64,000 nucleotides of DNA from Tubulanus polymorphus (Eukaryota > Animalia > Nemertea): NCBI RefSeq assembly GCF_964204645.1, contig NC_134027.1, positions 4,496,485 to 4,560,484 of the forward strand. Direction: 5' to 3'. Below, in pieces: positions 47,302 through 62,710 of the stretch. Below the pieces are notes generated by a model. The model had not been told where the DNA came from and did not search any database. It worked only from the letters and a program-made list of their open reading frames with translations. A program made the position numbers and the translations under genes. The stretch's first letter is position 1. Each line of letters begins with the position of its first letter.

Positions 47302-49643
47302 ATCGATGCGCGTTGAAATGGCATCCGCCGGTTGCGACTGATGGCTGGCGATAGAAATGACGCCCGGTTACCCTGCGACTGATTTCACTGATCGATTAGA
47401 ATATTACGCCAGTCACCATGACAATCCTTCAGTTAAACAACTAGCTTAGCTCTATCTCTATATCAACTATAAAAAAAACAGCGGCGCGGCAAGCATCTGT
47501 AACGTATTATTTCGGATTTTCGTGATCAATTTACATTCACAATCGGGGAGATGGTTCCTTAACAAACCAATAAACGAGTGCTCTCCCAGTGATTTATTTA
47601 GCAGGCAAGTAGACGAGTTCTCATTAGAGCTACACCAGAAAGTACGTTCGATGAAACCGATCTTATATTTTGCAGAGCTCAGATTTGCTAACTCGGGAAT
47701 TTTCACAACCATTCTATATAGGCTCTTAGACATTTTTCACTAAAAAATACCAGGATTTTTGACATTTTATTTGGATTTTTCATATTTTTCCGTCCGGGTA
47801 CAATAACATAGATAATTGATGTTCAACATCTGGATACAGCTTGTATTTCCATCTAGTCCTCTCCACATCAGCAAATAAAAACAAAAACACCAATTAAAAT
47901 ATTATTTATAATAAATTTTATTTGATCACTTAAATTCCATCTCGATATCAATAATAATTTGGCAAATAAAACCGTCAGACAATCGCAATCACAGTTAAAG
48001 TGCTTAGACTCTCACACTTGAACAGAATATTTCGCGGGAATTGTTCCAATAATATCAGAACTGCTCACTGAATACCTCCCACGGAATTATGCCATTTAAT
48101 AAAAATGTTTCCAGAATGTGTTACATTAACGACTCATCATCATTCATGCATCTACAATGGTGAATTATTTATTTTAATACAATTATTTTTCCCACAGCAA
48201 AAAATACATGTATTACGGTAATAGATAATGCCCATACACAGCAAAACTAATTCTTAAGTCGAAATGCGCTTTTCATAATGGAAAATTTGCTCAGAATTTT
48301 GATAATACATTTTCAAATGTTTTTTTGTTTTTGTTGCAATAACTAATAATCTGCGTTAAACATCTCAAATTCACCCTTAGAAACTGGCAAAAGTACAAAT
48401 AACTTTAGTACGAACAAGAGGTGAAACATCGATATAAAACATAGAGCTACAGCGGGGAAAAATAGTCACTTTAGTCCCAGTGAATGTACGGGAAGACACA
48501 TATTTCAAGGCAGGTTTGAACTAAAGAATGGAATCCTACTGAAATTAATACTGAATTTGGTTGCTAGCGTCACTAGTCAAGAATCTATAAGTATTCTCCG
48601 TTAACGAAAACATTCTATGACCAGATAGATGATACAAGCAAGCTCTGAACCGACAAGACACATCTCATAGATCTCTCTTATTACACGATACGGTTTTGAT
48701 GGATTAAGTAATTAAAATAACACCGATTTTGAAGTACTATTTCTGAGTATAAACAAACTGAGACGTATGACAAGTTTACCGGTACATCATCACTAAACAT
48801 CTACTATAAACCATATAGGTGGTGGTTACACCTCATCTTAACAACACCGATGTTCGTCAAGACTTTTTGAAACTATATTTTTAATGTAAGTTATTCTAAC
48901 AGCGCAAATTGTTTTTTTCTTTAACAAACATCGGTGTCATTTGAAGATTCAGTTGAAATCAAACAATGTCCGATACACAAGCCCTGCATATCGCATAACA
49001 TAGCAAATAATACTGGCCCACGTGGTCCGCCCGCGACATTATTTGACATCCACGGAAGTTTCTGAAAGTTGTGACCAAATATTCGTTATCATAATTCATC
49101 AGTATTTCACGGGCACACCGGCAATAAATCATAACCAGACACTTTCGTTGTGGCCCCAATTTGATTCCTCCCCACCCGTACCCGTAGAGACAAAAATTGG
49201 ACCCAGACATTTTAAAGTGCAGAGATTTGTTAATGCGCACGATCACAGCGTGGATAGGAATGAGTTAACATATAATAATATCTTAATACTAATGATATAC
49301 AATTACAACAAAGTAAAGCAGAGTAAAATCCTGCCGATAAATCTTTCGTTAAAAACCGATAATAAATCGATGACGAAAATTCTTCGCATTCTTCACGAGT
49401 TTATATGCGATGACGACGGGCCGAGCGATTATCTGAGTATTGCAACATCACGTCATAACCCTGTGTTCTACATAAATAAATAATCTTCTAAAGCATTTCC
49501 GATATACATCGACAGCGGAGGAGGAAGGATGGAGCATCTCGCACCGTACACCGCCATCATACCTTCACAGCCGATTCATTATTCAATTGCTTTACATTTT
49601 CACGATAGTTTATTATAATTTTAATATGATAACCATTCCATAT

Positions 49644-49658
49644 TGAAAGACTGGTAGT
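49644..49658 (-). promoter_or_regulatory. miR-71 8mer target site with 3'-supplementary pairing in the PPP4R1 3'UTR
   Basis: Plus strand TGAAAGAC-T-GGTAGT, so the mRNA reads ACUACC-A-GUCUUUCA, complementary to miR-71 nt 1-8 and 12-17; ~50 nt after the stop codon. Confidence 0.55.
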
Positions 49659-49699
49659 TATTATATCTCTTCGACTGCAGTACCTAATCAGAAGCACAC

Positions 49700-52600
49700 T
49701 CACACTGGCACCTGAAAATACAAAACACGTAATCAGTGATGGTTTTTTTTATGCGATTAATAAGTTCCAGTAGACTGCTTAGTCGTCGAGTCTTTGATTT
49801 GCTTTGCTTTCCCCCTAACTATTCCTTGACTTTCTCTGCTAAGAATCCGATCATAAAGCAGTCAAACAGGCACGGATACTGCTTGATGATACACCTGATC
49901 CAACTATCTCAAAGAATATCCCTCCTGGTTGTAGAATTTTTTTATATCCCAAAATCCCAAACTCCCTACCCTCTCAAAGAAAATTCTCTGACTTTCCCGA
50001 TTTTGAGTTAAAGTGGCCAGAAAGTAAACGTGACTAATTTACGCTGATCCGAAATGATCACGATTAAACTGATTGATTAAATCTAGTATAATTACCGTAT
50101 CCTCAATGTGTTGACTATTACTATCTGGAGGATGCGATATGAAATGTCGTACATCTTTATCGGCATCAGATTTAAGCGTTTGGATTGTACGCAGCAGTTC
50201 CTCGTGATGTGGATTTTTGTAACTCGTAAAATACTCTAAATGAAATTCAACCACGAAATGCATTACAATCAAATGAAATCATTACATTAGGTGAATTATT
50301 CAGAATTACCCAGGGTGCTTACAGATCAGAGAATCCAGAATTCCTTAACCAAAAATTCTGATTAAATTGTGAGATAGCCTCAGCGGGGGTGTTTCTTACC
50401 TAAGAGGTTCATTGTACCTTTCATTTAAGGGCAAGACTTTTCTCATTGAATGATAAACTAATTTGGAATTGCCAGATCTATTAAGGACCCCGACTGATAC
50501 CCCATACAAACACTCACCTGAATTGATTACATATTTTGCTAGTGTCTTCGCTAATGATATTCGAACATTAGGTATTAAATCAGCACCAAGTAAGTTTAAA
50601 GTAGGCAACAAATCGCGAGCAAATCGTTCATCGGGTAGACTTTTATTTTCTAGTATATTCTCGCATAGTTGACAATACCTGAAACGATACGACATACAAC
50701 CATTAGATGGCACCACTGTACAATAGATCATATCAATACAACAAATTGTACGTTATTGATAGATACTTACGTTTGTCTACCGTACCATTTACAACTCATA
50801 CCATATTTATCAACCAAATCATCGACGAACGACACCAAAAATCTCTCTCCTTTCTCATCGTAAAACTTCTTCAACACGACGCTAACCTGTAACCAAAAAT
50901 GCACCGCGTTATTTGAATCCATCTCGAGGTCGATGTGAAGATATCAAAGATTCATCGACTCACCAAGCGATAAGCCACTCTGCGAACCTCGGCGACTTTG
51001 TCAGACACAAGCGCCATAGATACGTGGACTAGATGCTCACTAATATCATCCGAGCTGTACATATCACACATTAGAATCAGTTGTTCGGCCAATAACATGC
51101 GATAACGCCAGTTACGATTATTATCAGTAGCCATTATATCGGGTAATTTATACAAATAATGCTGTCGTTGATCAGTGACGAGTAACTGCAAGAAAATAGA
51201 AATATTTTCAATTTCTTGTCCAATAAAGAGAGGGAGAGGGTACGGAAAAGATTTAGTAGTTGAATTGATACCTGTATAAACTCAGCTAAATGTCGTACAG
51301 CTCCGATCTTAACTTCGTCGAGGTCTTTGAGGAAGTCGTTGAATATTGGAACTAGATCACGATTAGTAATACCATCTCCTAATATGACACCTAACTCGTG
51401 TATAGAGAACGCAAGCGTCCGCCGTACCTTCCACTACAAAATAGCAAATTCGGAATTAAAAAAAAATTTGAATCGGTTATGTATCAACCTTTTACGGGTT
51501 GGCCACTTTTTCCCTGACTATTTCCCGACAAGTATGTTGTTTTCCCAGACTAGATCTACTAAGAATACGATCAATTAACCGTCAAATACTGAGACATAGA
51601 CAGAATCAGTTTGACCATACACGTGATCTCAACTAATTTCACAGATTATCAGCTATTTTACAACATTTTTTGACTATTTACAAGAAAATAAAATTCCCAG
51701 ACATTTCCATCCCCAATGATTTAAGTACAATTAAATACCTGCATGTCGGCAGCCAATGCTTTATACGTCTCTCGTAAACAAGGCCAGTGCCCGCGCCCAA
51801 GAGTATAAGCGACCGCAGGTAGACTGAACGCGCAGTGTCGCGCGATCTCGGTATCGACGGTCTGCGCGCGAGTTGGATCAATCATGCTGAGGTAGTGATC
51901 GAGTAGCGATTGCGGAATCACGTCCTGCGTCAGATAATTCTGATATTGCTCAAATTGTGCGTCGTCGTCATCGTCGAACAAGTTGTCGCTATTCGTCGAC
52001 ATCAGACTCGTGTCCGGAGTACAAGGCACGTGGTGGTGATGTTGTTGTTGAGCGTTTTCATTGTCGGCGTAGTTTACCGAACGACTGCTTCCATCTGGAA
52101 ATATTGCGTAAAATATAAATTCAAACATTAAATCAATGTGTAGGGTAATTATTAGGATTAAAACGTGTATTCCCGAGATACTTGCTGCATGTTTTAACAG
52201 GGGATATATTAAGGGAATATCATCAGCTAGGCTAAAATAGTGAAAAATCTTTCGTGTCACAGGGCAAAAAAAATAACTGATAAAGCAGAAGCAAGACATA
52301 AACCAGAAATGCTTTCTAGCTTCTAGCTATTTTGTACCAACTAACACAGTCCGCCCAAAAGCCACATCTAATGTTATATCTTGTTTTATACATTCAGCTT
52401 AAGGCCGTACTGGTTTGACAGGTTACTTACCTCTGCCGACGAGAGTGACTGCAGTTTCATGAATTTGTTGGCCTAATACATGCGTACTGCCGATATGGGT
52501 GACAATCTCCGGCTCTTCTTGATGTAAGCTAACGCTTGCAACGTGAACAGTGGAACTAGCTTCATCTTGTTCTTCCGTCGTGTCGTCTGAGCTCGCGTTG

Positions 52601-55600
52601 ACGCTGCTGTCTATTTGCGTATCGTGAAGTTTCTCGGATAATTCGTCGAGTTGAGTCGACTCGCTTGTCGTTTGTTCGCCGCTCTTCGCGCCGTCGCTCA
52701 AATCGATGTCTTTCTCAGCCGTAACGATCTGATTAGAAACGGTGTCTTTAAGACGCGCGACGACGTGAATATTTGCCGGTTTGCCGGCGACCAAATCGAG
52801 ATCGAGATCAATTTCTGGCAGGGGCATATTCCAGAAATTAAAGTCGGAAAAATGAGCGATGTTATCGAGGTGTATATGGACCTTTTCGGCCGAATCCGAT
52901 TGACTCTTCTCCGTTTTTGTGACCGACTTCTCGTCCGATTCGGGCGCGGTCGATTCTTCGGAGCAGATGAGCGAATCCTCGTTTTTATCGACGACCTGGG
53001 CGATTATATCCAACAAACTGACTCCTTTATCTTCTTCATCGTCGTCGTGTTTTACTGTTTCGCCGATCTGATCGCTGCTACTTTCATCGGTCGTGCAGCC
53101 ACCTATTGGAATGCTGCTGCTGCTGCTCGTCTCCTGTTTGTTTTCGATGTAATCTTCTAAATCCTCTTCGCGTTTCTCGTCGAAGTATTTCAAGGCACGA
53201 TACTCTTCAACGGACGTCTCCGACGACTGATCTCCGCTTCCGTTATGAGTAACGGGATTGTCATCACTGCTGCTGCTGTTCTCTGACTTAGCACCGGTTG
53301 GTATCACATGAATATAATTACTACTATTATTAGAAACAGTTACGTCCAAGTCCATATTTTTTTGTTGTTGTTGTTGTTGTTGTATATCACAGTTATTAGA
53401 ATCAGCAGTAGAACTGGAATGTTCCAATTGTCCGAGTGCTGCATTTATATCCGCTTCGTCACTTGAGCTGCTTTTGCTGTCATCAGAATCACAGTCGTCA
53501 TCCCTGTAAAAATAAACAGATTATAGAATCAACTGATTATACCAAGGTTCCTACAATTCCTGGTATCCAGAATTCAACGACTTTTTAAGTAGTAATTTTC
53601 AAAATTCAAGGAGGTTTTCGCGGTCATATATAAGGAAAAAAAAGTCAAAAATTCGAAAACAAAATCCATGTTTTTCCCAAATTTTGATCAGTTGTTTTGT
53701 GTGCCGTTTTGGTTTTACATGTTTAAATCTCAAAGTGAAACAACTTTCACTCACAAGTCACACAATGAAGAATAATAGAATACACTGTCTTATGAAAAGG
53801 ACCTTTTGAAAATTTTTAATAGGACTTTCCCAGAATTTAAGGAGTTTCAAGGAGTTTATGGATATTTCTCAAAATTAAAGGATTTTCAAGGACCTTGAAA
53901 AACATTTTCAAAAATCAAGGAGTTTTCAAGGATTCAAGGAGTTGTAGGGACCCTGTATACAGCCGAGAATGAAATATCAACATAAGATTGGCGATATTAT
54001 AAACCCTTATAACATAAACATATCTTCTGCCCCTACCAGAGTGGATGTCAATATTCTATCAATACCGATTAAATTGCTTTGAAAGGAGCTAATGTAACAT
54101 GTAATAGAAAATTACACCAAAGTTAAGCTTAAATTTTCTGTATATTTTTGGGGGATTTTAACATCTTGCTACTTCAGCAGCCACAATGTCATACATTTGA
54201 CAGCCTCTCTAAAATTCCAGCATATGGAGAATACTGGCAAAGACATTCCATTCAATATTAGGGTCTACAAAATTGACAAGACTCAAATTTGAAAACAGTG
54301 AGTGAAATGAAGAGCCTTTGGTAAAAGATACACGCATAGTGCTTCTTTAAAAAAACAAAAAACAAAAAAAATTCTCTGCGAACAAAATTTCACTAATTGC
54401 GACACATTCATGGAAATGTTCAATTTTTTCCTAAATGTTCAATTGTTTCCTTTTTTCTTAAAATTTTTCACACCCCTGAGTAAACTCTGCTGCCTAACTC
54501 AGAATGGTAAATATTTCATATAGATGTCCAATAAAGACTAAGGAGGGTTTCCTATAGAACTAACTCTTAAAACATACTGCCTAGATTTGAGTACGAGTTA
54601 CTGCACCTACATGACTTACCCATTAGTCGATGGTTTATAGCGTAAAACACCTTCGTCATCGAAGAACAGACCAGTGATTGAAGGATCGGCGAATGTTGAA
54701 ATAAACGGGCCCAAAGCTTCGAATGCAGCGATTCTCACCTGAAAATCAAACAACACTTCATCAGTTCATCATGCAAACACTAGATGGCAGCAGCTTACAA
54801 CCAGCTGTAGCAACGCCTACTTAGATATGATGGTGACGTAACTATGACACGCATCATACGACAATCAATAGAATTCTATCCATAAATAACCTTGTGATTA
54901 CGTCAATAGACTATCCGCTGAAATTCGATTGTCTACCTAAAATGATTACCTATTTGGCTACGTAGACAAAAACGTCACCCAAAGAAAACAACTGTTCTTA
55001 TAATAGGGCCAAAAAACTATTCATAATGTTCTGCTATAAATACTATGAACCTCGTCTATTTCGAGTTCATTTTCAATATTTGTTCCCTCATTGGTAAAAA
55101 TAAAGATATATTAAGACTAGAACAAGCTTAATCTAGATCATTGAAACCAATGAAATTCATTATATTTACATCCACAAAACGAATCTAAAATTTTAGATAA
55201 TTTATGATAGATGGACAGTAAATAATATTAAAATCAAAATCTAACTGATCATAATTAAGTGGGTTTGGCTACTCTGCAAAAATAATTCAGGCGGTTCCAA
55301 AAAATTCCATTGTCATGAATAAGTCTTAGTATCAATTGCAGTAAGTGACTCAAACACAAATAAACATTGCTGCATTTTATATATGTGTGGGTGGAAACAG
55401 GTGGATTTTAATGTCCCGCCAAAAATAGATTTTTTTCACAAAAATGTCTAAAATTCAATTCGGACAATGACGGACTGCCCAATTGTTATTCAAGCGATAT
55501 GTGTCATGATTGAGACACATTGCTCGCTGTTGATATGAGTTAGTATGAGTCAAATTGGCAACGTTCCAAAAACGAAGCTATTGCTAGTGCTGCTGCTGCT

Positions 55601-58600
55601 GCTGCTGCTGCGTGCTGCTAATCATCTGTAGTTGTAGTAGTATTGGCGAGTCACTATACCTGGCACTGAACCAAAATAAAATTATTGTATTCAAGCTTTA
55701 GTCATTGCCGAAACTATTCACATAGCGCGAATGAATTCCGATTCACGATTCACTCGCATAGTATTTCAAATAAATTTCTTTTTCCATAAAATTTTTATGA
55801 AACTCACCCATCTGGACTGGTCCCGCAACAGGTTAATGAAAAGAGTGGCGAGTTCTTGTTTGCGTATCTCCGGACAACTAGCACATGACACAGATGTAAA
55901 ACATTCAGCGCAGGCCTTCCTAACTCCCCACACACCATCTTCACATAAATAGTGAAACTTGGGCAACTACAAACACAAAATTGAAGATTCAATCATATCA
56001 TTATCTAATCGAGTTACTCTTTCTAATTGACGATTTCTAAATAATCTTCACTACGTTGTATCGATATCAATACTAACCATGTGTTCTTCGGTGGCCTCTT
56101 GTCCCACTACTCGACACATATCACCAAAATTAGCAGCGCACACCTAAAACCAGACAATAAATTACATAAATATAATGAACTTATTTCAAGACGATTTCTT
56201 TTATCATTTCGGTTAAAATCGAAGATAACCACTCGCCTTTCGGACATGAAATAAAGTGTCCGTACAGAGCATCGTGAACTGCGGTAGAAATATACGTTCA
56301 GTAATGTCTCGTCCGACCAACGAAGCCATCTTACTCATTAACTGTCGAAAATAAACAATTGGCAAAATCAGCACATTATTCAATGAGGATTTTATAGAGT
56401 AACAACGAAATACTGAAGTTAAGGGTTACATTTTTTGTAAGGATTGTTTACTGTGATGCTATATTCTCGGTCTGATCTACATCTTTAACAAATATACATC
56501 ATTCAACGGATAATTCTATGGTACTGGCATCTATCACACAATACAGTATACCATGGCCCACTAACATCATTAGCTAGTTGACCTGATTTTTTTGCCACAC
56601 ACAAATACATGCAGCGGATCATATAACTCTATCCATTAGTTGAAGGTGATTCAGTATTTTTGAGTCACCAAAGCAGACTGTGATATGGAGGTGTTCACAA
56701 CTAAACATTTCACAGTCACTTAGATGGCTCAATTACACCATTACAAAGAAACAATTCTACAAGACTAAACTTTCTAGAAGACACTTGGTGAATAAGCAGA
56801 ATGAATAAGGCATAGTTAAGCGAATAAGAGAATTATGTCAAATATCAGATTTTGATAGTTGTCGAATAAACACTATAATCCGTGTATACTGTAGATAAAT
56901 GAAGCAATCCCACACTTCGAATTTAAAATTATACGATCAAATTTATTATTATGAAACCACAACTAACAGCCATCACCTGAGATTTAGAATTTCTTTCGGG
57001 TTAAAAAGGCCTAGATTTATGACGATGGGTTCAGATTAAATAAAGCTTTAAATTCAAAAAAAGATTTGATAAATAATCTGATGAAATGAGCGTTCGTTGT
57101 CAGATACCGGCGATATCAATGCGGAGAACAGTGTCCAACGCAGGCACGTCAAAGCAGGCTGTGATACGGATACCAAATAAAGGCGCATCACAGCCACTGT
57201 GACGGCCAACGCTGATCAAATAATCCACCAGCTTGACATAGAAATGAAGACCAGCGCTGCGTGTGTACGAGATGCTGCATAATGAAGATTGCTGTAAGGT
57301 ACGCAGCAGCCAGTTTACACTCAATAATAACTGCCCGCAATAGAGCTCGACAGAACTGGCACAGCAACACGAGTAAGAGGTGAAAAGGAAAAGAGGCTGG
57401 CAGGGTCTTCAACTGAGCTCATCAAAGCAGGCTGTGATATGTTAATATCGAGACACACATCACAACCACTTCAATGGCCCGGTCATAAGACAATTTCTTA
57501 GAATTTAAAAGGCACAGAAAACCCTCAAATTGGCTAGGCGAATGGATAATACGTAAAAATGGAAATACAGCATACGGACGCAAAAAAAGGAATTTGTTTA
57601 TATTCATTTCATGCTCTTATGGAATCCATAAAAATCTTGAAAGCCGTTCATGATAGCTGCAACATTGTGCGGGTGATAACACACAACATGTATCCTGACT
57701 GTACAAAACGTGAATGGATTACGAAGGGCTACAATTTACTGGTTCAATGATTCACACGATTAATGTTAACCGATAAATCATTTATGCGGCAATTAATATT
57801 CAAAAATTTTTGCCAGTCCCCTCCGACAAGAAACGTATGTACGTATGATACATCTGTGAAGAAGTCCTGAACTCAACTCGATGTCTATAAGCTGTGCGAG
57901 GACTAGATGAAAGCTCATCAAAGCTGGCTGTGATATGAATTCAATAGTCACATTTCACAACCACTTTGAGAGATGACATAAATAGCCTGTTTTTTTTCTG
58001 CATGTTAGCATCATGTTGATCCAGCAATTTAGTAACTTTTTGGACCAAGCCGAACATGACCTCCAACACGTCCAATAATAAAGGAAGGATCTTCACTATA
58101 TAAAGTTGATGTTCTCATTTCTAAGTGGTATCCGGTGTAAAGATATCCAGGACAATGAGTGTCTGCTCGAGTGACTGAAAGAGTTTGTTAATTCCAGGAA
58201 AGCCAAGAAACTGGATAGGCACTTCACGCCGTAAATCTAACAACAACCAAGTTTAGTTCAAATCTGATCTACATTAAAATCGAAGCACATCGGAAAAATC
58301 GAGTAATCAAACAGACTATAATAAAGAAAGTATCGTCGTATGAAGTGAAGTAGTCTAATCCAAGCAGGCTGTGATATGATAATTCAAGTGTTTAAACAAC
58401 ACATCACAACCACTCGAATCAGACAACAAAACTTTTTTTTTTTTATCTCACCAAAATAACTTCGGTAATAGATTTTTAACGAAATGTTTTTAGTTTGAAA
58501 GGCATAAAAATGATACTTCGATATCGCTAGGACATTTTGTGATTAGAACGTAGCCGTACGAAACGTATGTGCCACTAGACTTAATTATACACTGACAACC

Positions 58601-61600
58601 TGACAGTTAGTTAGCCTAGTAAATCATACGAAGAGGAAATCAGTTCTTGTGAAAGGTGAACGAAAGAATGTGTACAGGATATCACTAACATATACAACCT
58701 TCAATAGTGTCGGATTAGATGCGTCGACAAGGACACAGTTACCTAGCTACTCGATGGGCATGTTTCGACCAACAATCAACCGTGAAGGCGGCGCCGGTGC
58801 TGCGGCAGACGAAAAATCACTCGCGGTATAACGTTCAAAATATACGGTAGAAATGAAGAATCAATACAGATCGAGGCTCATCAAAGCTGGCTGTGATAGG
58901 CTCAGATGTAACTACAACAATCCAACCTTGACGGCCATGACGCTGTAATACACGCTGGTTTCATCGGATGGACAACAGACACGATAAATAAATCATAATA
59001 ACAAGACCGAAGATTCCGAGCTTCCCAAGTCATGATTTCACTTTCAATACGCTTATAATGATGCAAATAGGTTCAATTCTAACTCTACTTTTTTTAAAAT
59101 CTTGAAATAGGGATTGACCCTGTTAGTAATTTGATTGGTAGATTTGGTTAAATTTTTTGCATTGGTGTCCCTTACAAACCCATCACACCCGCCGGGAGCG
59201 AAACGGGATTTGATTTAGAAATCGAACTTCTAACGAAACTACGTCCAACATGTAGCTGAACGAACAAACTATATACATGAACCTGTATTTGAAATCTATC
59301 TGCAATAAAAAATCATCACCATTCCATGTGATAATTGAGGAATAATCTTGAACACTAAATAATGAAAACTATTTTGTGCAGCGCCTCCAACCTCATCTAT
59401 CGGAACTTTCTGTTAAAATCGGTTCGGTTTGGCAAAAAACATTATACATAACAATATACAAATAGCTGCTCGAGAGCTTAAAATCATTATGTCTTATCCT
59501 AAAAAACATTCTACATCGATACAACCCAATTAGAAAATATTTCTCTCAGTTTTCAGGCGATATAAGCTCAGATTCATTGTCTGTTCTTCCAAATTTAGGT
59601 CACACCAGCCTGCATTGGTTTCCAAAGCAACAACAAAAGAATTGGGAACAATGCCATCTGGTGGACTGTATGACAAAGGACAAGACATGAGAACTCACAA
59701 AAGCAGAGGATGGGCCTGGACCTATTTGATATGGAGCGACCATTGAGCTATTGAGCGATTGTGGCCAGCAATTGTATATGTTTTGTGGCACATGCCCACC
59801 CCTTACAGGCTTATACATGAACCTGTTCTATCATTGGAGACAGCTGTGAGGAAGACACAAAAGTGTGCCACCCAGAGAACAAAGCCAAAATAAAACTACA
59901 ACCAATAATAGTTCCTTTGTGAGAAGCTTCCCCCATTACTCTTATGTAATCTTACAAAGAATTTGCGATATTAATTACATTCTGATATTGTCACCTGTCC
60001 TACATGAAACCGAAGTGCAACCGTAAATTTGTCAAAACCGAAAACATACTTTGACAGGAAAGTAAAACACCTCAAAAATAAAACTCAATTAAACATTTTC
60101 TAATTTTCTCGATTTTCACGGTAGAACTTTAACGCCGCTTTTCGCAAAAGACACGTAAGTGAGATGATGGTATCTTAATTCACATCTCACTACCCATGTC
60201 TTTCACAAAACACGGAAACATTCATTGATTCCTGCTGCACTTAAAATTCTCTGAACTAATTGAATTAATACGAATCAATAAATACTCACCGCTACAGCTT
60301 CAGTCCTGTACACGTCCAAGCTATCAAAACTGGTAAGATCCAAAATAATGGGGCACACTTGTTCCTCCACATCACCTGTAATTAATGTCAAATTCAATCA
60401 GACGCGTGCAGAATTGAGGTCTGTAAAAAGGTGTATTCGTGGATATTGAAACGTCGAACAACGCACATCATCGAAGCTTACCTCTATCAACTAAATCTTG
60501 CTCTAATAAAACGAGCAACGCGGCTTGACTAGTTTTTCGAACCTGGAAAGAAAATACACAATTCATTCATTAACATTTATCCGTTAATACAACTGGTAAA
60601 TTTAGTTTTCTACAAACGCGAAACGATAATTAGACGCACCTGATTGTTAGTGTCAGTTAAATACTTCACGACTAACGGAAGTAGATAGGATGGTATCGCG
60701 TCCGCGAAGATTTGACGATTCTCTTGACAATATTTAGCTATGTGAGGAACCTGTTCCATCAGTTCAGATCTCACCGATGCATCTGAGATTACAAGCCAGA
60801 AAACAAGTTGTAGAGAGAAGTTTAACGAATTTTCCGACAATTTAAGTCAAGTTACATCAATTCCGTACCCGGATCGTCCGCTAATCTCATGATCGCCTTC
60901 AAAACGCCAACAGCTTCCTCTTCATCTTCACCTACTGAACAGATCGTGTCCAGAAGACTCCTCGCCAACATTTGTCTAAATAAAGTAAACCATTTGAAAT
61001 AACAGCGACATCGTTTAACCGAGACACTAGAGTTCAAAACATCGACGAGTCAGAAATAAACTCGATGAAATTATCTTATTTCAATTTCATCCGAAATGCC
61101 ATTGATAGCACAGAAGCAAATCATTTCGATCGAAGTTTCCCGAGTTGAGATGGCTTCTAACGAACGCAAGTTGGACAAGTTCCAACGCACAATTTTACTA
61201 CGATAGTAACAACTGTTACAATATTATGTTCACATAAATATAAGAGTCAATAAAATCATAACCCGTAATTCATCATCTGACAAAAAAATGCTACTATTTC
61301 AAATGCAAACACTAGGTCTTCATTAAAAAAAGAGGATATAACATTGAACATATCTTAACTTTTCATCAGCAAAAAGTTAGTATATTTCTTTTTTACTATA
61401 TAAATGAATGAACTTGTTTTACCTGCTGAAAATATTGTCCATCTGCATGTGTTTTTCCAACTTCTGTAGAGGAGTGAGACCCTCATAGAGGAGTTCCCTT
61501 TCTCTATGAAGCGGAATGAATTCCGAATCATCATCCCCTAAAAAAACATATCGAAAAGACTTTCATTTTAAAAAAATCATGTATGTACTACAAAAATAGA

Positions 61601-62710
61601 ATATATAATTCAGTAGTAACTAAGTAACAAACAAACATCACTAAACGCGCAAATCTATTAATTTATTATAAACTATATTGGTTTTTATTTGATTGATCAT
61701 AGATTGAAATCAAAAGAAAAGCCGTAAATCAACTACTTAATTCAAACCTATCGAAGAACGCCTTAAGTAGGGTTTGTTTAATCGTCAGTTCGATTCAAAT
61801 AAAAATACTAAACACACAATAGACAAACACGATAATAATCGCGCTACATACAACAGTTACAGCACCACTAAATAAATCACTCTCAAAATTAATAATAAAT
61901 ATAATCCATGTATATTCTTATAAATCTATTTCTAATATCCGAGTTAATTCAATAATCCAAACACCATTTGCTTAGTAGGATATCCTCTCTTTGTTGTGCG
62001 CCAAGATGAGAATCCAACTTCGTTATTGCTGAGCAAAACATTACTCACATGATGATTCATTGCCGTATAAACAACGCTCTATTTCAACTAATTGCGTTAA
62101 TCCATTTAGTAACTAAATCAAAATCAAATCTTATATCCATTTTAATCCTTTCTCCAATAGATTTGCGAGAAAAAATCGTTTAATATACGACTAGAGCAAG
62201 GTAACGCTACGAGCCCTTTGTTCGACGCGCACAACGCTTAGATTCCAGGTCAAAGGTTAAAACGGGGTCGGGTAGGAAATCCCGTGGTCACATGACTTCA
62301 AGCGTGCCATCAATCGCTCACATTTGAATCAACAAGCTACTAACACAAACTCTAACCACGAATAACACTAATACTAAACATTTTAGAACCTCACATAGCA
62401 CCGGAATATCATTATACAGTCATAATTAACGCAAAAACAACACCGCACCAGAGCGACAAAGGCTCTGACGACATCAGAAATTCGAAGTTGGTGCTCGTAA
62501 GAAAATTTGTGGGGTCACACCGAGAATAACCGCGATAAAAAGCCATTTTCACGACGAAATAACCTTACTTACCGTCATCTTGATTTTCTCCGGAGTCATT
62601 TGGATAAAAGTCGATATCTAAAATGTCACAACGATTAATCGATTAGCGCGAATAGAGTGAAAAAAATAGGACAAAATTATGCGAAGAAATTAACTATGCT
62701 TACCCGCCAT
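49700..62710 (-). CDS. PPP4R1: Serine/threonine-protein phosphatase 4 regulatory subunit 1 (HEAT-repeat scaffold)
   Basis: Starts ATG GCG G|gt (62710-62704), with a 45-nt exon 2. Motifs include VRSELMEQVPHIA, LFHVRKVCAANFGD, DGVWGVRKACAECF, ALGPFISTFADP, TVDTEIARHCAFSLPAVAYTLGR, WKVRRTLAFSIHEL, NWRYR, DKVAEVR, PNVRISLA and DADKDVR. There is a long acidic insert exon. Last exon VPV* 49711-49700; AATAAA at ~47917-47922. Confidence 0.95.
53543..53955. mobile_element. Non-autonomous DNA transposon (MITE) in a PPP4R1 intron
   Basis: TIRs CAAGGTTCCTACAATTCCTGGTATCC / GGATTCAAGGAGTTGTAGGGACCCTG (~21/26 match), TA at the right flank, many subterminal TTCAAGGA repeats. Confidence 0.7.
55588..55619. 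repeat. (TGC)n microsatellite, intronic
   Basis: About 7 perfect TGC units plus a degenerate tail. Confidence 0.8.
56660..56732 (-). ncRNA. mir-2: pre-miR-2 family copy 6 (divergent; mature UAUCACAGUCUGCUUUGGUGAC, 56664-56685)
   Basis: Seed AUCACAG on the 3p arm. The 5p arm GAGCCAUCUAAGUGACUGUGAAAUG pairs with it and carries a compensatory A:U change. Confidence 0.85.
57140..57212 (-). ncRNA. mir-2: pre-miR-2 family copy 5 (mature UAUCACAGCCUGCUUUGACGUGC, 57144-57166)
   Basis: 3p mature sequence with complementary 5p arm GGCCGUCACAGUGGCUGUGAUGCG. Confidence 0.9.
57412..57484 (-). ncRNA. mir-2: pre-miR-2 family copy 4 (mature UAUCACAGCCUGCUUUGAUGAGC, 57417-57439)
   Basis: One mismatch to canonical miR-2a; 5p arm GCCAUUGAAGUGGUUGUGAUGUG forms the hairpin. 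Confidence 0.92.
57911..57974 (-). ncRNA. mir-2: pre-miR-2 family copy 3 (canonical mature UAUCACAGCCAGCUUUGAUGAGC, 57913-57935)
   Basis: Exact canonical miR-2a mature sequence; star arm CUCUCAAAGUGGUUGUGAAAUG. Confidence 0.95.
58351..58426 (-). ncRNA. mir-2: pre-miR-2 family copy 2 (mature approx. UAUCACAGCCUGCUUGGAUUAG, 58355-58376)
   Basis: Seed intact; 5p arm GUCUGAUUCGAGUGGUUGUGAUGUG is complementary. Confidence 0.9.
58874..58938 (-). ncRNA. mir-2: pre-miR-2 family copy 1 (canonical mature UAUCACAGCCAGCUUUGAUGAGC, 58876-58898)
   Basis: Exact canonical mature sequence; 5p arm GGCCGUCAAGGUUGGAUUGUUGUAG forms the hairpin. Confidence 0.93.
60138..60210 (-). ncRNA. mir-71: pre-miR-71 (mature 5p UGAAAGACAUGGGUAGUGAGAUG, 60183-60205)
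   Basis: Exact conserved miR-71 sequence; 3p arm CAUCUCACUUACGUGUCUUUUGC (60144-60166) pairs with it; first hairpin of the cluster, ~85 nt inside the intron. Confidence 0.96.

What the first reader, a model, noticed from the sequence alone, without database searches (positions are those of the whole stretch)
47988..49658. Host gene 3'UTR is targeted by its own intronic microRNAs: candidate PPP4R1 / miR-71 / miR-2 feedback loop
Seen: within the ~1.8-kb PPP4R1 3'UTR there is a miR-71 8mer (mRNA GUCUUUCA, 49644-49651) with extra complementarity to miR-71 nt 12-17 (49653-49658). There are also two miR-2 7mer-m8 / K-box sites (mRNA CUGUGAU at 49242-49248 and 47988-47994). A rough composition estimate gives ~0.1 expected copies of each 7-mer in a UTR this long. 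Inference: co-transcribed miRNAs buffer the PP4 scaffold, which could help explain the long conservation of the miRNA-host linkage. I am not aware of this being described.
Basis: partly seen in the sequence, partly recalled or inferred. Interest (0 to 1): 0.78.

Follow-up and report, generated by a model that had tools for sequence, protein, structure and literature searches.

The report
miR-2 targets its own host gene
In a ribbon worm, the phosphatase-scaffold gene PPP4R1 carries the microRNAs miR-71 and miR-2 in one intron and matching sites in its transcribed tail; the miR-2 site recurs in the same gene of molluscs, crustaceans and a mite, so miR-2 likely dampens its own host gene, while the miR-71 site was seen only in this species.

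Summary
All three sites are at the stated coordinates on the minus strand of PPP4R1 (Tubulanus polymorphus, a nemertean). One intron holds mir-71 and six mir-2 hairpins. Spliced contigs show the UTR reaching 47921 in one study and 48034 in another. In this UTR alone three 7mer-or-better sites are only mildly surprising (P 0.03-0.05), although the miR-71 8mer with 6-nt supplementary pairing is rare (1 of 20,000 shuffles). Orthologs split the claim. The miR-2 7mer-m8 is in 8 of 20 non-redundant protostome PP4R1 transcript UTRs (0.9-1.15 expected; rank 1 of 16,384 heptamers) and 6 of 15 lineages, and three water-flea UTRs share it inside their longest common block (14 nt). miR-71 7mer-m8 sites: 0 of 31. 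Against: this heptamer is the top conserved UTR word of worms in general; genomic contigs show no excess (1 of 11); only 3 of 23 copepods carry it, and copepods that keep the intronic cluster lack it. Verdict: a likely real, recurrent miR-2-to-host damping loop of a known kind; the miR-71 arm looks local; 'explains the linkage' is unsupported. No functional test exists.

The parts
49700..62710 (-). PPP4R1-like coding span, 19 exons, 1,084 aa by my model (NCBI's 1,037-aa protein starts at a later Met)
   Evidence: Open frame with GT/GC-AG ends; 100% identity of one exon to P0001, PP4R1-like of Tubulanus polymorphus; HEAT domains; last 7 introns seen spliced; first three exons are predicted only
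56342..60289 (-). Host intron (after residue 141 of P0001) holding the whole mir-71/mir-2 cluster
   Evidence: same intron holds the cluster in L045 (cladoceran-like), L009/L010 and L032 (copepod-like)
60138..60211 (-). mir-71 hairpin (mature arm about 60205-60183), 78 nt after the 5' splice site
   Evidence: Rfam RF00832, 57.5 bits, above gathering 50; folds at -38.2 kcal/mol
58872..58938 (-). mir-2 hairpin 1
   Evidence: RF00047 29.7 bits, below gathering, E 0.008; canonical mature arm and hairpin fold
58350..58425 (-). mir-2 hairpin 2 (divergent 3' end)
   Evidence: RF00047 40.6 bits, below gathering; fold -38.5
57909..57975 (-). mir-2 hairpin 3
   Evidence: RF00047 68.7 bits
57413..57481 (-). 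mir-2 hairpin 4
   Evidence: RF00047 56.6 bits
57140..57209 (-). mir-2 hairpin 5
   Evidence: RF00047 50.5 bits
56659..56731 (-). mir-2 hairpin 6
   Evidence: RF00047 41.5 bits, below gathering; same seed as the other five
47900..49699 (-). PPP4R1 3' UTR, about 1.8 kb in its long form (end inferred)
   Evidence: Spliced contigs to 48034 (X2) and 47921 (X3); poly(A) hexamer at 47922-47917
49644..49651 (-). miR-71 8mer site, UTR nt 49-56
   Evidence: predicted accessibility at the 97th percentile of the UTR, local AU 0.73, duplex -18.6 kcal/mol
49653..49658 (-). 6-nt match to miR-71 nt 12-17 (3'-supplementary pairing)
   Evidence: 0.5% of UTR positions have such a run upstream
49242..49248 (-). 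Proximal miR-2 7mer-m8 (K-box-type) site
   Evidence: predicted accessibility at the 34th percentile
47988..47994 (-). Distal miR-2 7mer-m8 site, 65 nt before the poly(A) hexamer
   Evidence: 5-nt supplementary run for 4 of 6 paralogs (background 3-7%); predicted accessibility only 13th percentile; covered by X3 and X6 (one sample), not by X2
49609..49614 (-). Proximal canonical poly(A) hexamer, just downstream of the miR-71 site (use not shown)
47917..47922 (-). Distal canonical poly(A) hexamer, likely main end
   Evidence: X3 and X6 contigs stop at 47921 and 47927

Best explanation
PPP4R1 carries mir-71 and six mir-2 hairpins in one intron and seed matches to both in its transcribed 3' UTR, and the miR-2 match recurs in orthologous UTRs across protostomes, so miR-2 likely puts a mild brake on its own host mRNA, with the miR-71 site as a likely lineage-limited addition. 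Shown: gene structure, hairpins, sites, UTR coverage, excess of the miR-2 heptamer in orthologs, absence of miR-71 sites there. Inferred: the hairpins are cut from the host pre-mRNA (mir-71 starts only about 70-120 nt after the 5' splice site in four lineages, leaving little room for its own promoter in that intron); the loaded miRNAs would bind by ordinary seed pairing (no slicing: pairing is incomplete) and lower mRNA and protein modestly, an incoherent feed-forward loop that would buffer the dose of the PP4 scaffold where miR-2 is high. The sites are not alignable between classes and are missing in most copepods, so they have been kept or regained piecemeal rather than fixed.
For: Transcript set: miR-2 7mer-m8 in 8 of 20 non-redundant UTRs (window excluded) against 0.90-1.15 expected, p 6e-7 to 3e-6, rank 1 of 16,384 heptamers under first- and second-order backgrounds; 7 of 15 after merging BLAST-linked UTRs. 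Lineage level: 5 of 11 (p 7e-4, rank 5); with genomic contigs 6 of 15 (p 2e-3 to 5e-3); one random member per lineage 6 of 15 against 0.94 (median p 1e-4; 4e-3 at double, 0.024 at triple background). The 6-nt core is in 19 of 31 UTRs, rank 1 of 4,096. Three cladoceran UTRs share one 14-nt block, their longest, around the site. L060, a lophotrochozoan with the same 12-nt last exon, has an 8mer at UTR nt 29 and a 7mer-m8 32 nt before its poly(A) hexamer. Sites sit 32-66 nt from a poly(A) hexamer or contig end in L002, L004, L008, L013, L039, L040, L042, L060 and the window. Two hydrozoan-like controls have no core match in 796 and 1,036 nt. The miR-71 site in the window is an accessible 8mer with supplementary pairing, 1 of 20,000 shuffles.
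Against: The same heptamer is the highest-scoring network-conserved 3' UTR word in nematodes (187 genes) and marks 259 fly genes (PMC1309705, passages and section 6), so part of the excess is generic; with summed lineage expectations it is not significant at triple background (p 0.05-0.3) and its lineage-level rank falls to 21 with genomic contigs. I had no set of other genes' UTRs from the same animals. Genomic contigs show no excess (1 of 11, 0.8 expected), though their UTR ends are unknown. Only 3 of 23 copepod UTRs and 2 of 4 lophotrochozoan UTRs carry it. The reverse complement occurs 4 times against 10 sense. The cladoceran block is twice the seed length and could be another element. Both miR-2 sites in the window are predicted poorly accessible. 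miR-71 7mer-m8: 0 of 31 orthologs. The scan picks such coincidences out of many windows, which discounts the window-only statistics. No small-RNA, CLIP or reporter data.
Confidence: 0.55

Rival explanations
1. Generic K-box background: miR-2 has hundreds of targets, its site is the commonest conserved UTR word of protostomes, and PP4R1 carries it at about the usual rate; hosting the miRNA has nothing to do with it.
For: Top-ranked conserved word in worms and flies (PMC1309705); significance at lineage level fades at triple background; no excess in genomic contigs; most copepods lack it.
Against: 187 worm and 259 fly genes with a conserved site are a small part of those genomes, whereas 8 of 20 UTRs and 4 of 4 major clades sampled have it here; the observed excess is six- to nine-fold.
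Confidence: 0.25
2. One reading: both miR-71 and miR-2 form an ancient co-transcribed buffer on PPP4R1 and this is what keeps the cluster in the intron.
For: Same intron in nemertean, cladoceran-like and copepod-like loci, mir-71 close to the 5' splice site; strong miR-71 site in the window; miR-2 excess in orthologs.
Against: miR-71 7mer-m8 in 0 of 31 orthologs; the single 7mer-A1 (L036) reads as an intron acceptor tract and the 8mers in L010 and L032 lie 2.2-2.9 kb out, at the next gene; cluster kept without 7mer sites in L009/L010 and L032; own promoters in C. elegans; host lost in Drosophila.
Confidence: 0.1
3. Chance or a non-miRNA element: the Tubulanus sites are neutral matches picked after the fact, and the conserved cladoceran block binds a protein or aids 3'-end formation.
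For: P 0.03-0.05 for the site count in the window alone; a vertebrate locus (L058), whose lineage lacks both miRNAs by PMC3384581, has one 7mer-A1 for each in 1,624 nt; the block extends past the seed.
Against: The enriched word is exactly the seed match of the hosted miRNA and was named before the ortholog data were fetched; the miR-71 site has seed, supplementary pairing and accessibility together.
Confidence: 0.1

Closest known systems
Intronic miRNAs that target their own host (first-order negative feedback); predicted for about 20% of human intragenic miRNAs (PMC3091682, passages; PMC7016697, abstract)
   Same: Same-strand intronic miRNA with seed matches in the host 3' UTR.
   Different: Those surveys rest on predictions in model species; here the match recurs across nemertean, mollusc-like, crustacean and mite orthologs.
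Drosophila miR-92a/b and jigr1 (PMC4441384, abstract)
   Same: Protostome miRNA family that lies in and represses its host gene.
   Different: Shown genetically in vivo; nothing of the kind is shown for miR-2 and PP4R1.
mir-71/mir-2 cluster in the PP4R1 gene: C. elegans ppfr-1 (PMC3410857 and PMC2835999, passages), honey bee GB15727 (PMC2394756, passage); cluster ancestry (PMC3384581, part 1 of 4)
   Same: Same cluster, same host family; the linkage itself is known.
   Different: The passages I read do not propose the host as a target; in C. elegans the two miRNAs sit in different introns with their own promoters.
K-box regulation by the miR-2 family (PMC1309705, passages, section 6, Table S2)
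   Same: Same site type.
   Different: Known targets are Notch-pathway and pro-apoptotic genes; PP4R1 was not found in the supplement text searched.

Membership tests
Self-targeting intronic miRNA loop | miRNA hairpins inside an intron of the host, same strand | tested here: met
Self-targeting intronic miRNA loop | Seed matches inside the host's transcribed 3' UTR | tested here: met
   (distal site covered in one sample only)
Self-targeting intronic miRNA loop | miR-2 site kept above background in orthologs | tested here: met
   met against Markov backgrounds, marginal if the generic K-box background is three-fold; no same-species UTR control
Self-targeting intronic miRNA loop | miR-71 site kept above background in orthologs | tested here: not met
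   0 of 31; no nemertean ortholog UTR could be read, so close-range conservation is open
Self-targeting intronic miRNA loop | miRNA made from the host transcript, in the same cells | tested here: inconclusive
   mir-71 lies about 70-120 nt after the 5' splice site in four lineages; C. elegans has separate promoters; no expression data
Self-targeting intronic miRNA loop | Host level falls through the sites (reporter, CLIP, knock-down) | not testable with these tools
   No functional data; no mention of ppfr-1 in the supplements searched
PPP4R1 (PP4 regulatory subunit 1) | HEAT-repeat scaffold whose best matches are PP4R1 proteins | tested here: met
mir-2 and mir-71 families | Covariance-model match and canonical seed | tested here: met
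   mir-71 and 3 of 6 mir-2 above gathering; the other 3 below gathering, E 8e-6 to 0.008, with the same seed and hairpin folds

The most novel reading that the evidence does not exclude
miR-2 has repressed its own host PP4R1 since the protostome ancestor, through a K-box site that is kept or regained near the poly(A) site in nemerteans, molluscs, crustaceans and mites: one of the oldest self-targeting intronic miRNA loops, with a nemertean add-on in which a proximal poly(A) signal would separate a miR-71-only isoform from a miR-71-plus-miR-2 isoform.
Probability: 0.3. Interest if true: 0.72.

Novelty: new member of a known kind. Interest (0 to 1): 0.52.

Why it matters
miR-2 is among the largest protostome miRNA families and its place in the PP4R1 intron is ancient, yet no functional tie to the host turned up in my searches. 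A recurrent site in the host UTR gives one cheap, direct test (seed edit in Daphnia or C. elegans) of whether intronic miRNAs buffer their host over very long times, and natural comparisons exist: lineages that lost the host, moved the cluster or lost the site. If the excess is generic, the case is an ordinary K-box target and the linkage needs another reason.

Tried and rejected
No whole genome is held for this window, so no Tubulanus-wide UTR background. No RNA holder was on record in the run search; X2, X3 and X6 were judged RNA from their spliced joints. X7 proved a relative with about 80% coding identity whose one contig was laid on coding exons only; its UTR was not shown. Allelic variation is uninformative: 12 substitutions and 2 indels over 1,749 nt in X3, none in the 28 site bases. 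Scans of genome contigs and viral contigs gave no PP4R1 locus. The idea that the miR-71 site is a relic arm of a duplicated hairpin was rejected: the region folds weakly (-14.8) and the site is largely open. Far-downstream miR-71 8mers in L010 and L032 were rejected as UTR sites. A comparison with the seed matches of other conserved miRNA families in the same UTR set was not done, so how far conserved seeds in general are enriched in this set stays open; the all-heptamer ranking is the only control of that kind. The excess of the heptamer in coding regions (18 sense, 5 antisense in 57.7 kb) is partly codon-driven (Pro-Val-Ile, Cys-Asp) and was not used. Literature: searches found no paper proposing PP4R1/ppfr-1 as a target of miR-2 or miR-71; two C. 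elegans chimera papers were not held under the ids I tried; ppfr-1 was absent from the supplements searched (3 files; 9 files; 12 of 14 files) and from the main text of PMC5413352; the supplement of PMC7016697 could not be read and may list this pair; PMC5121899 and PMC3840308 (passages) said nothing on the host. Subscription papers and target databases were not searchable. Look-ups of earlier findings by place and sequence were empty.

Full report
Locus. The window is from the nemertean Tubulanus polymorphus: one exon matches the NCBI PP4R1-like protein P0001 at 100%. By hand annotation the gene runs on the minus strand from 62710 to a stop at 49702-49700 in 19 exons with an open frame of 1,084 aa; contigs of runs X2 and X3 skip the last seven introns exactly. 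The intron 60289-56342 holds one mir-71 and six mir-2 hairpins on the same strand: four pass Rfam's gathering score, three more mir-2 copies score below it, and all six share one seed and fold as hairpins.

Observation. The miR-71 8mer, its supplementary hexamer and both miR-2 7mer-m8 sites are at the stated coordinates. X2 (study P1) covers the UTR without a break to 48034 and X3 (study P2) to 47921, where a canonical poly(A) hexamer starts; X6, of the same sample as X3, reaches 47927. Contigs cannot give true ends, and a second canonical hexamer lies only 86 nt after the stop, downstream of the miR-71 site and upstream of both miR-2 sites.

Chance in this UTR. In 5,000 dinucleotide shuffles the chance of three or more 7mer-or-better sites of either family is 0.047, of one miR-71 and two miR-2 sites 0.025, of the exact classes seen 0.0008. 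The miR-71 site is the better one: 8mer plus a 6-nt run against nt 12-17 arises in 1 of 20,000 shuffles, it is predicted open (97th percentile) and AU-flanked; the two miR-2 sites are predicted less open (34th and 13th percentile). Because the scan selects such coincidences from very many windows, these figures alone would not carry the claim.

Orthologs. An alignment of 16 PP4R1 proteins fetched 60 loci from metagenome contigs. I set aside 13 near-duplicates, 11 without a usable C-terminus or stop, and 2 that could not be placed (L055, L056); 2 hydrozoan-like transcripts (L037, L041) and 1 vertebrate locus (L058) served as controls; 20 transcript-type and 11 genomic protostome loci remained. 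Taxa rest on protein likeness: cladocerans (84% to Daphnia), a mite, mollusc-like and other lophotrochozoan rows, and 23 rows that form one supported clade which I read as copepods by habitat and likeness, without a named match.

miR-2 result. In the 20 transcript UTRs, window excluded, the miR-2 7mer-m8 is present in 8 (0.90-1.15 expected, p 6e-7 to 3e-6) and ranks first of all 16,384 heptamers; after merging BLAST-linked UTRs it is 7 of 15 and still first. By lineage it is 5 of 11 (p 7e-4, rank 5). Adding the 11 genomic loci (1 of 11, no excess) gives 9 of 31 and 6 of 15 lineages (p 2e-3 to 5e-3, rank 21), while the 6-nt core is in 19 of 31 and ranks first of 4,096. Drawing one member per lineage gives 6 of 15 against 0.94, median p 1e-4, 4e-3 if the true background is double and 0.024 if triple. 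By clade: lophotrochozoans 2 of 4, copepods 3 of 23, cladocerans 3 of 3, mite 1 of 1. The three cladoceran UTRs are otherwise barely alignable and share one 14-nt block around the site. L060 has the same 12-nt last exon layout as the window, an 8mer at UTR nt 29 and a 7mer-m8 just before its poly(A) hexamer. In eight orthologs and the window a site lies 32-66 nt from a poly(A) hexamer or the contig end; this was seen after the fact and not tested. The hydrozoan controls have no core match; the vertebrate locus has one 7mer-A1 for each miRNA, a reminder of the chance level.

miR-71 result. No ortholog has a 7mer-m8 or 8mer within 1,500 nt of the stop (0 of 31, 1.6-1.8 expected); the one 7mer-A1 reads as an intron acceptor, and two distant 8mers lie at the next gene. 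No nemertean ortholog UTR could be read, so the site may still be kept among close relatives.

Linkage and co-transcription. The cluster lies in the same intron (after residue 141-142) in L045, L009/L010 and L032, with mir-71 about 70-120 nt after the exon end as in the window (78 nt); this favours transcription with the host (inference). But L009/L010 and L032 keep the cluster with only 6-nt cores in the UTR region; in C. elegans mir-71 and mir-2 lie in different ppfr-1 introns with own promoters and partly different patterns (PMC2835999, passages); and the host phosphatase is reported lost from Drosophila, which keeps miR-2 (PMC2394756, passage). The loop is therefore not needed for the linkage.

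Mechanism and rivals. Most likely (0.55) miR-2 made from the PPP4R1 intron mildly represses PPP4R1 by seed pairing, a dose buffer kept or regained in several lineages, with a strong miR-71 site added locally. The main rival (0.25) is that the K-box heptamer is common in protostome UTRs anyway: it is the top conserved UTR word in worms, in 187 genes, and marks 259 fly genes (PMC1309705, passages and section 6). I lacked same-species UTR controls to settle this.

Novelty. Host-targeting by intronic miRNAs is a known kind (PMC3091682, passages; PMC4441384 and PMC7016697, abstracts), and the cluster's place in PP4R1 is known. Ten searches of the open-access library found no report of PP4R1 as a target of its own miRNAs; closed journals, target databases and one unreadable supplement were out of reach. 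The terms 8mer, 7mer-m8, 7mer-A1 and supplementary pairing, and the usual size of their effects, are recalled knowledge. Verdict: observation confirmed, interpretation partly supported, new member of a known kind, interest 0.52.

Noticed in passing
window 53385-53392, 53488-53494, 53302-53308, 51062-51068 (minus strand): Four more miR-2 7mer-or-better matches, one an 8mer, lie in PPP4R1 coding exons; mollusc-like L002 has six coding-region matches. Partly codon-driven.
   Followed up: partly
window 49609-49614 and 49620-49625: A canonical poly(A) hexamer and its commonest variant sit 75-90 nt after the stop, between the miR-71 site and the miR-2 sites; if used, a short isoform would escape miR-2.
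   Followed up: no
window 60211-60289; L045, L009/L010, L032: mir-71 begins about 70-120 nt after the 5' splice site of the same intron in nemertean, cladoceran-like and copepod-like loci, a spacing constraint that may reflect coupling of splicing and hairpin cropping.
   Followed up: partly
window 56659-58938: Six mir-2 paralogs share the seed but differ at nt 9-23; the copy at 58350-58425 pairs best with the distal UTR site (-19.1 kcal/mol against -12 to -16).
   Followed up: partly
run X7 on window 50550-51421: A run with the same species label holds a PP4R1 transcript only about 80% identical in coding exons, so the label likely covers a second, distant species.
   Followed up: no
L009, L011, L036 (about 130-370 nt after the stop): Copepod-like loci share several conserved UTR blocks, one holding only the 6-nt miR-2 core.
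   Followed up: partly
window 2282-46844 (minus strand): Downstream neighbours on the same strand: an NWD1/NWD2-like NACHT-WD40 gene (about 36.1-46.8 kb), an IP3-receptor gene (about 10-28 kb) and a protein kinase (2282-2701).
   Followed up: no
window 56237/56236: The exon after the miRNA intron is followed by a GC-AG intron in my model; not covered by the read layings.
   Followed up: no
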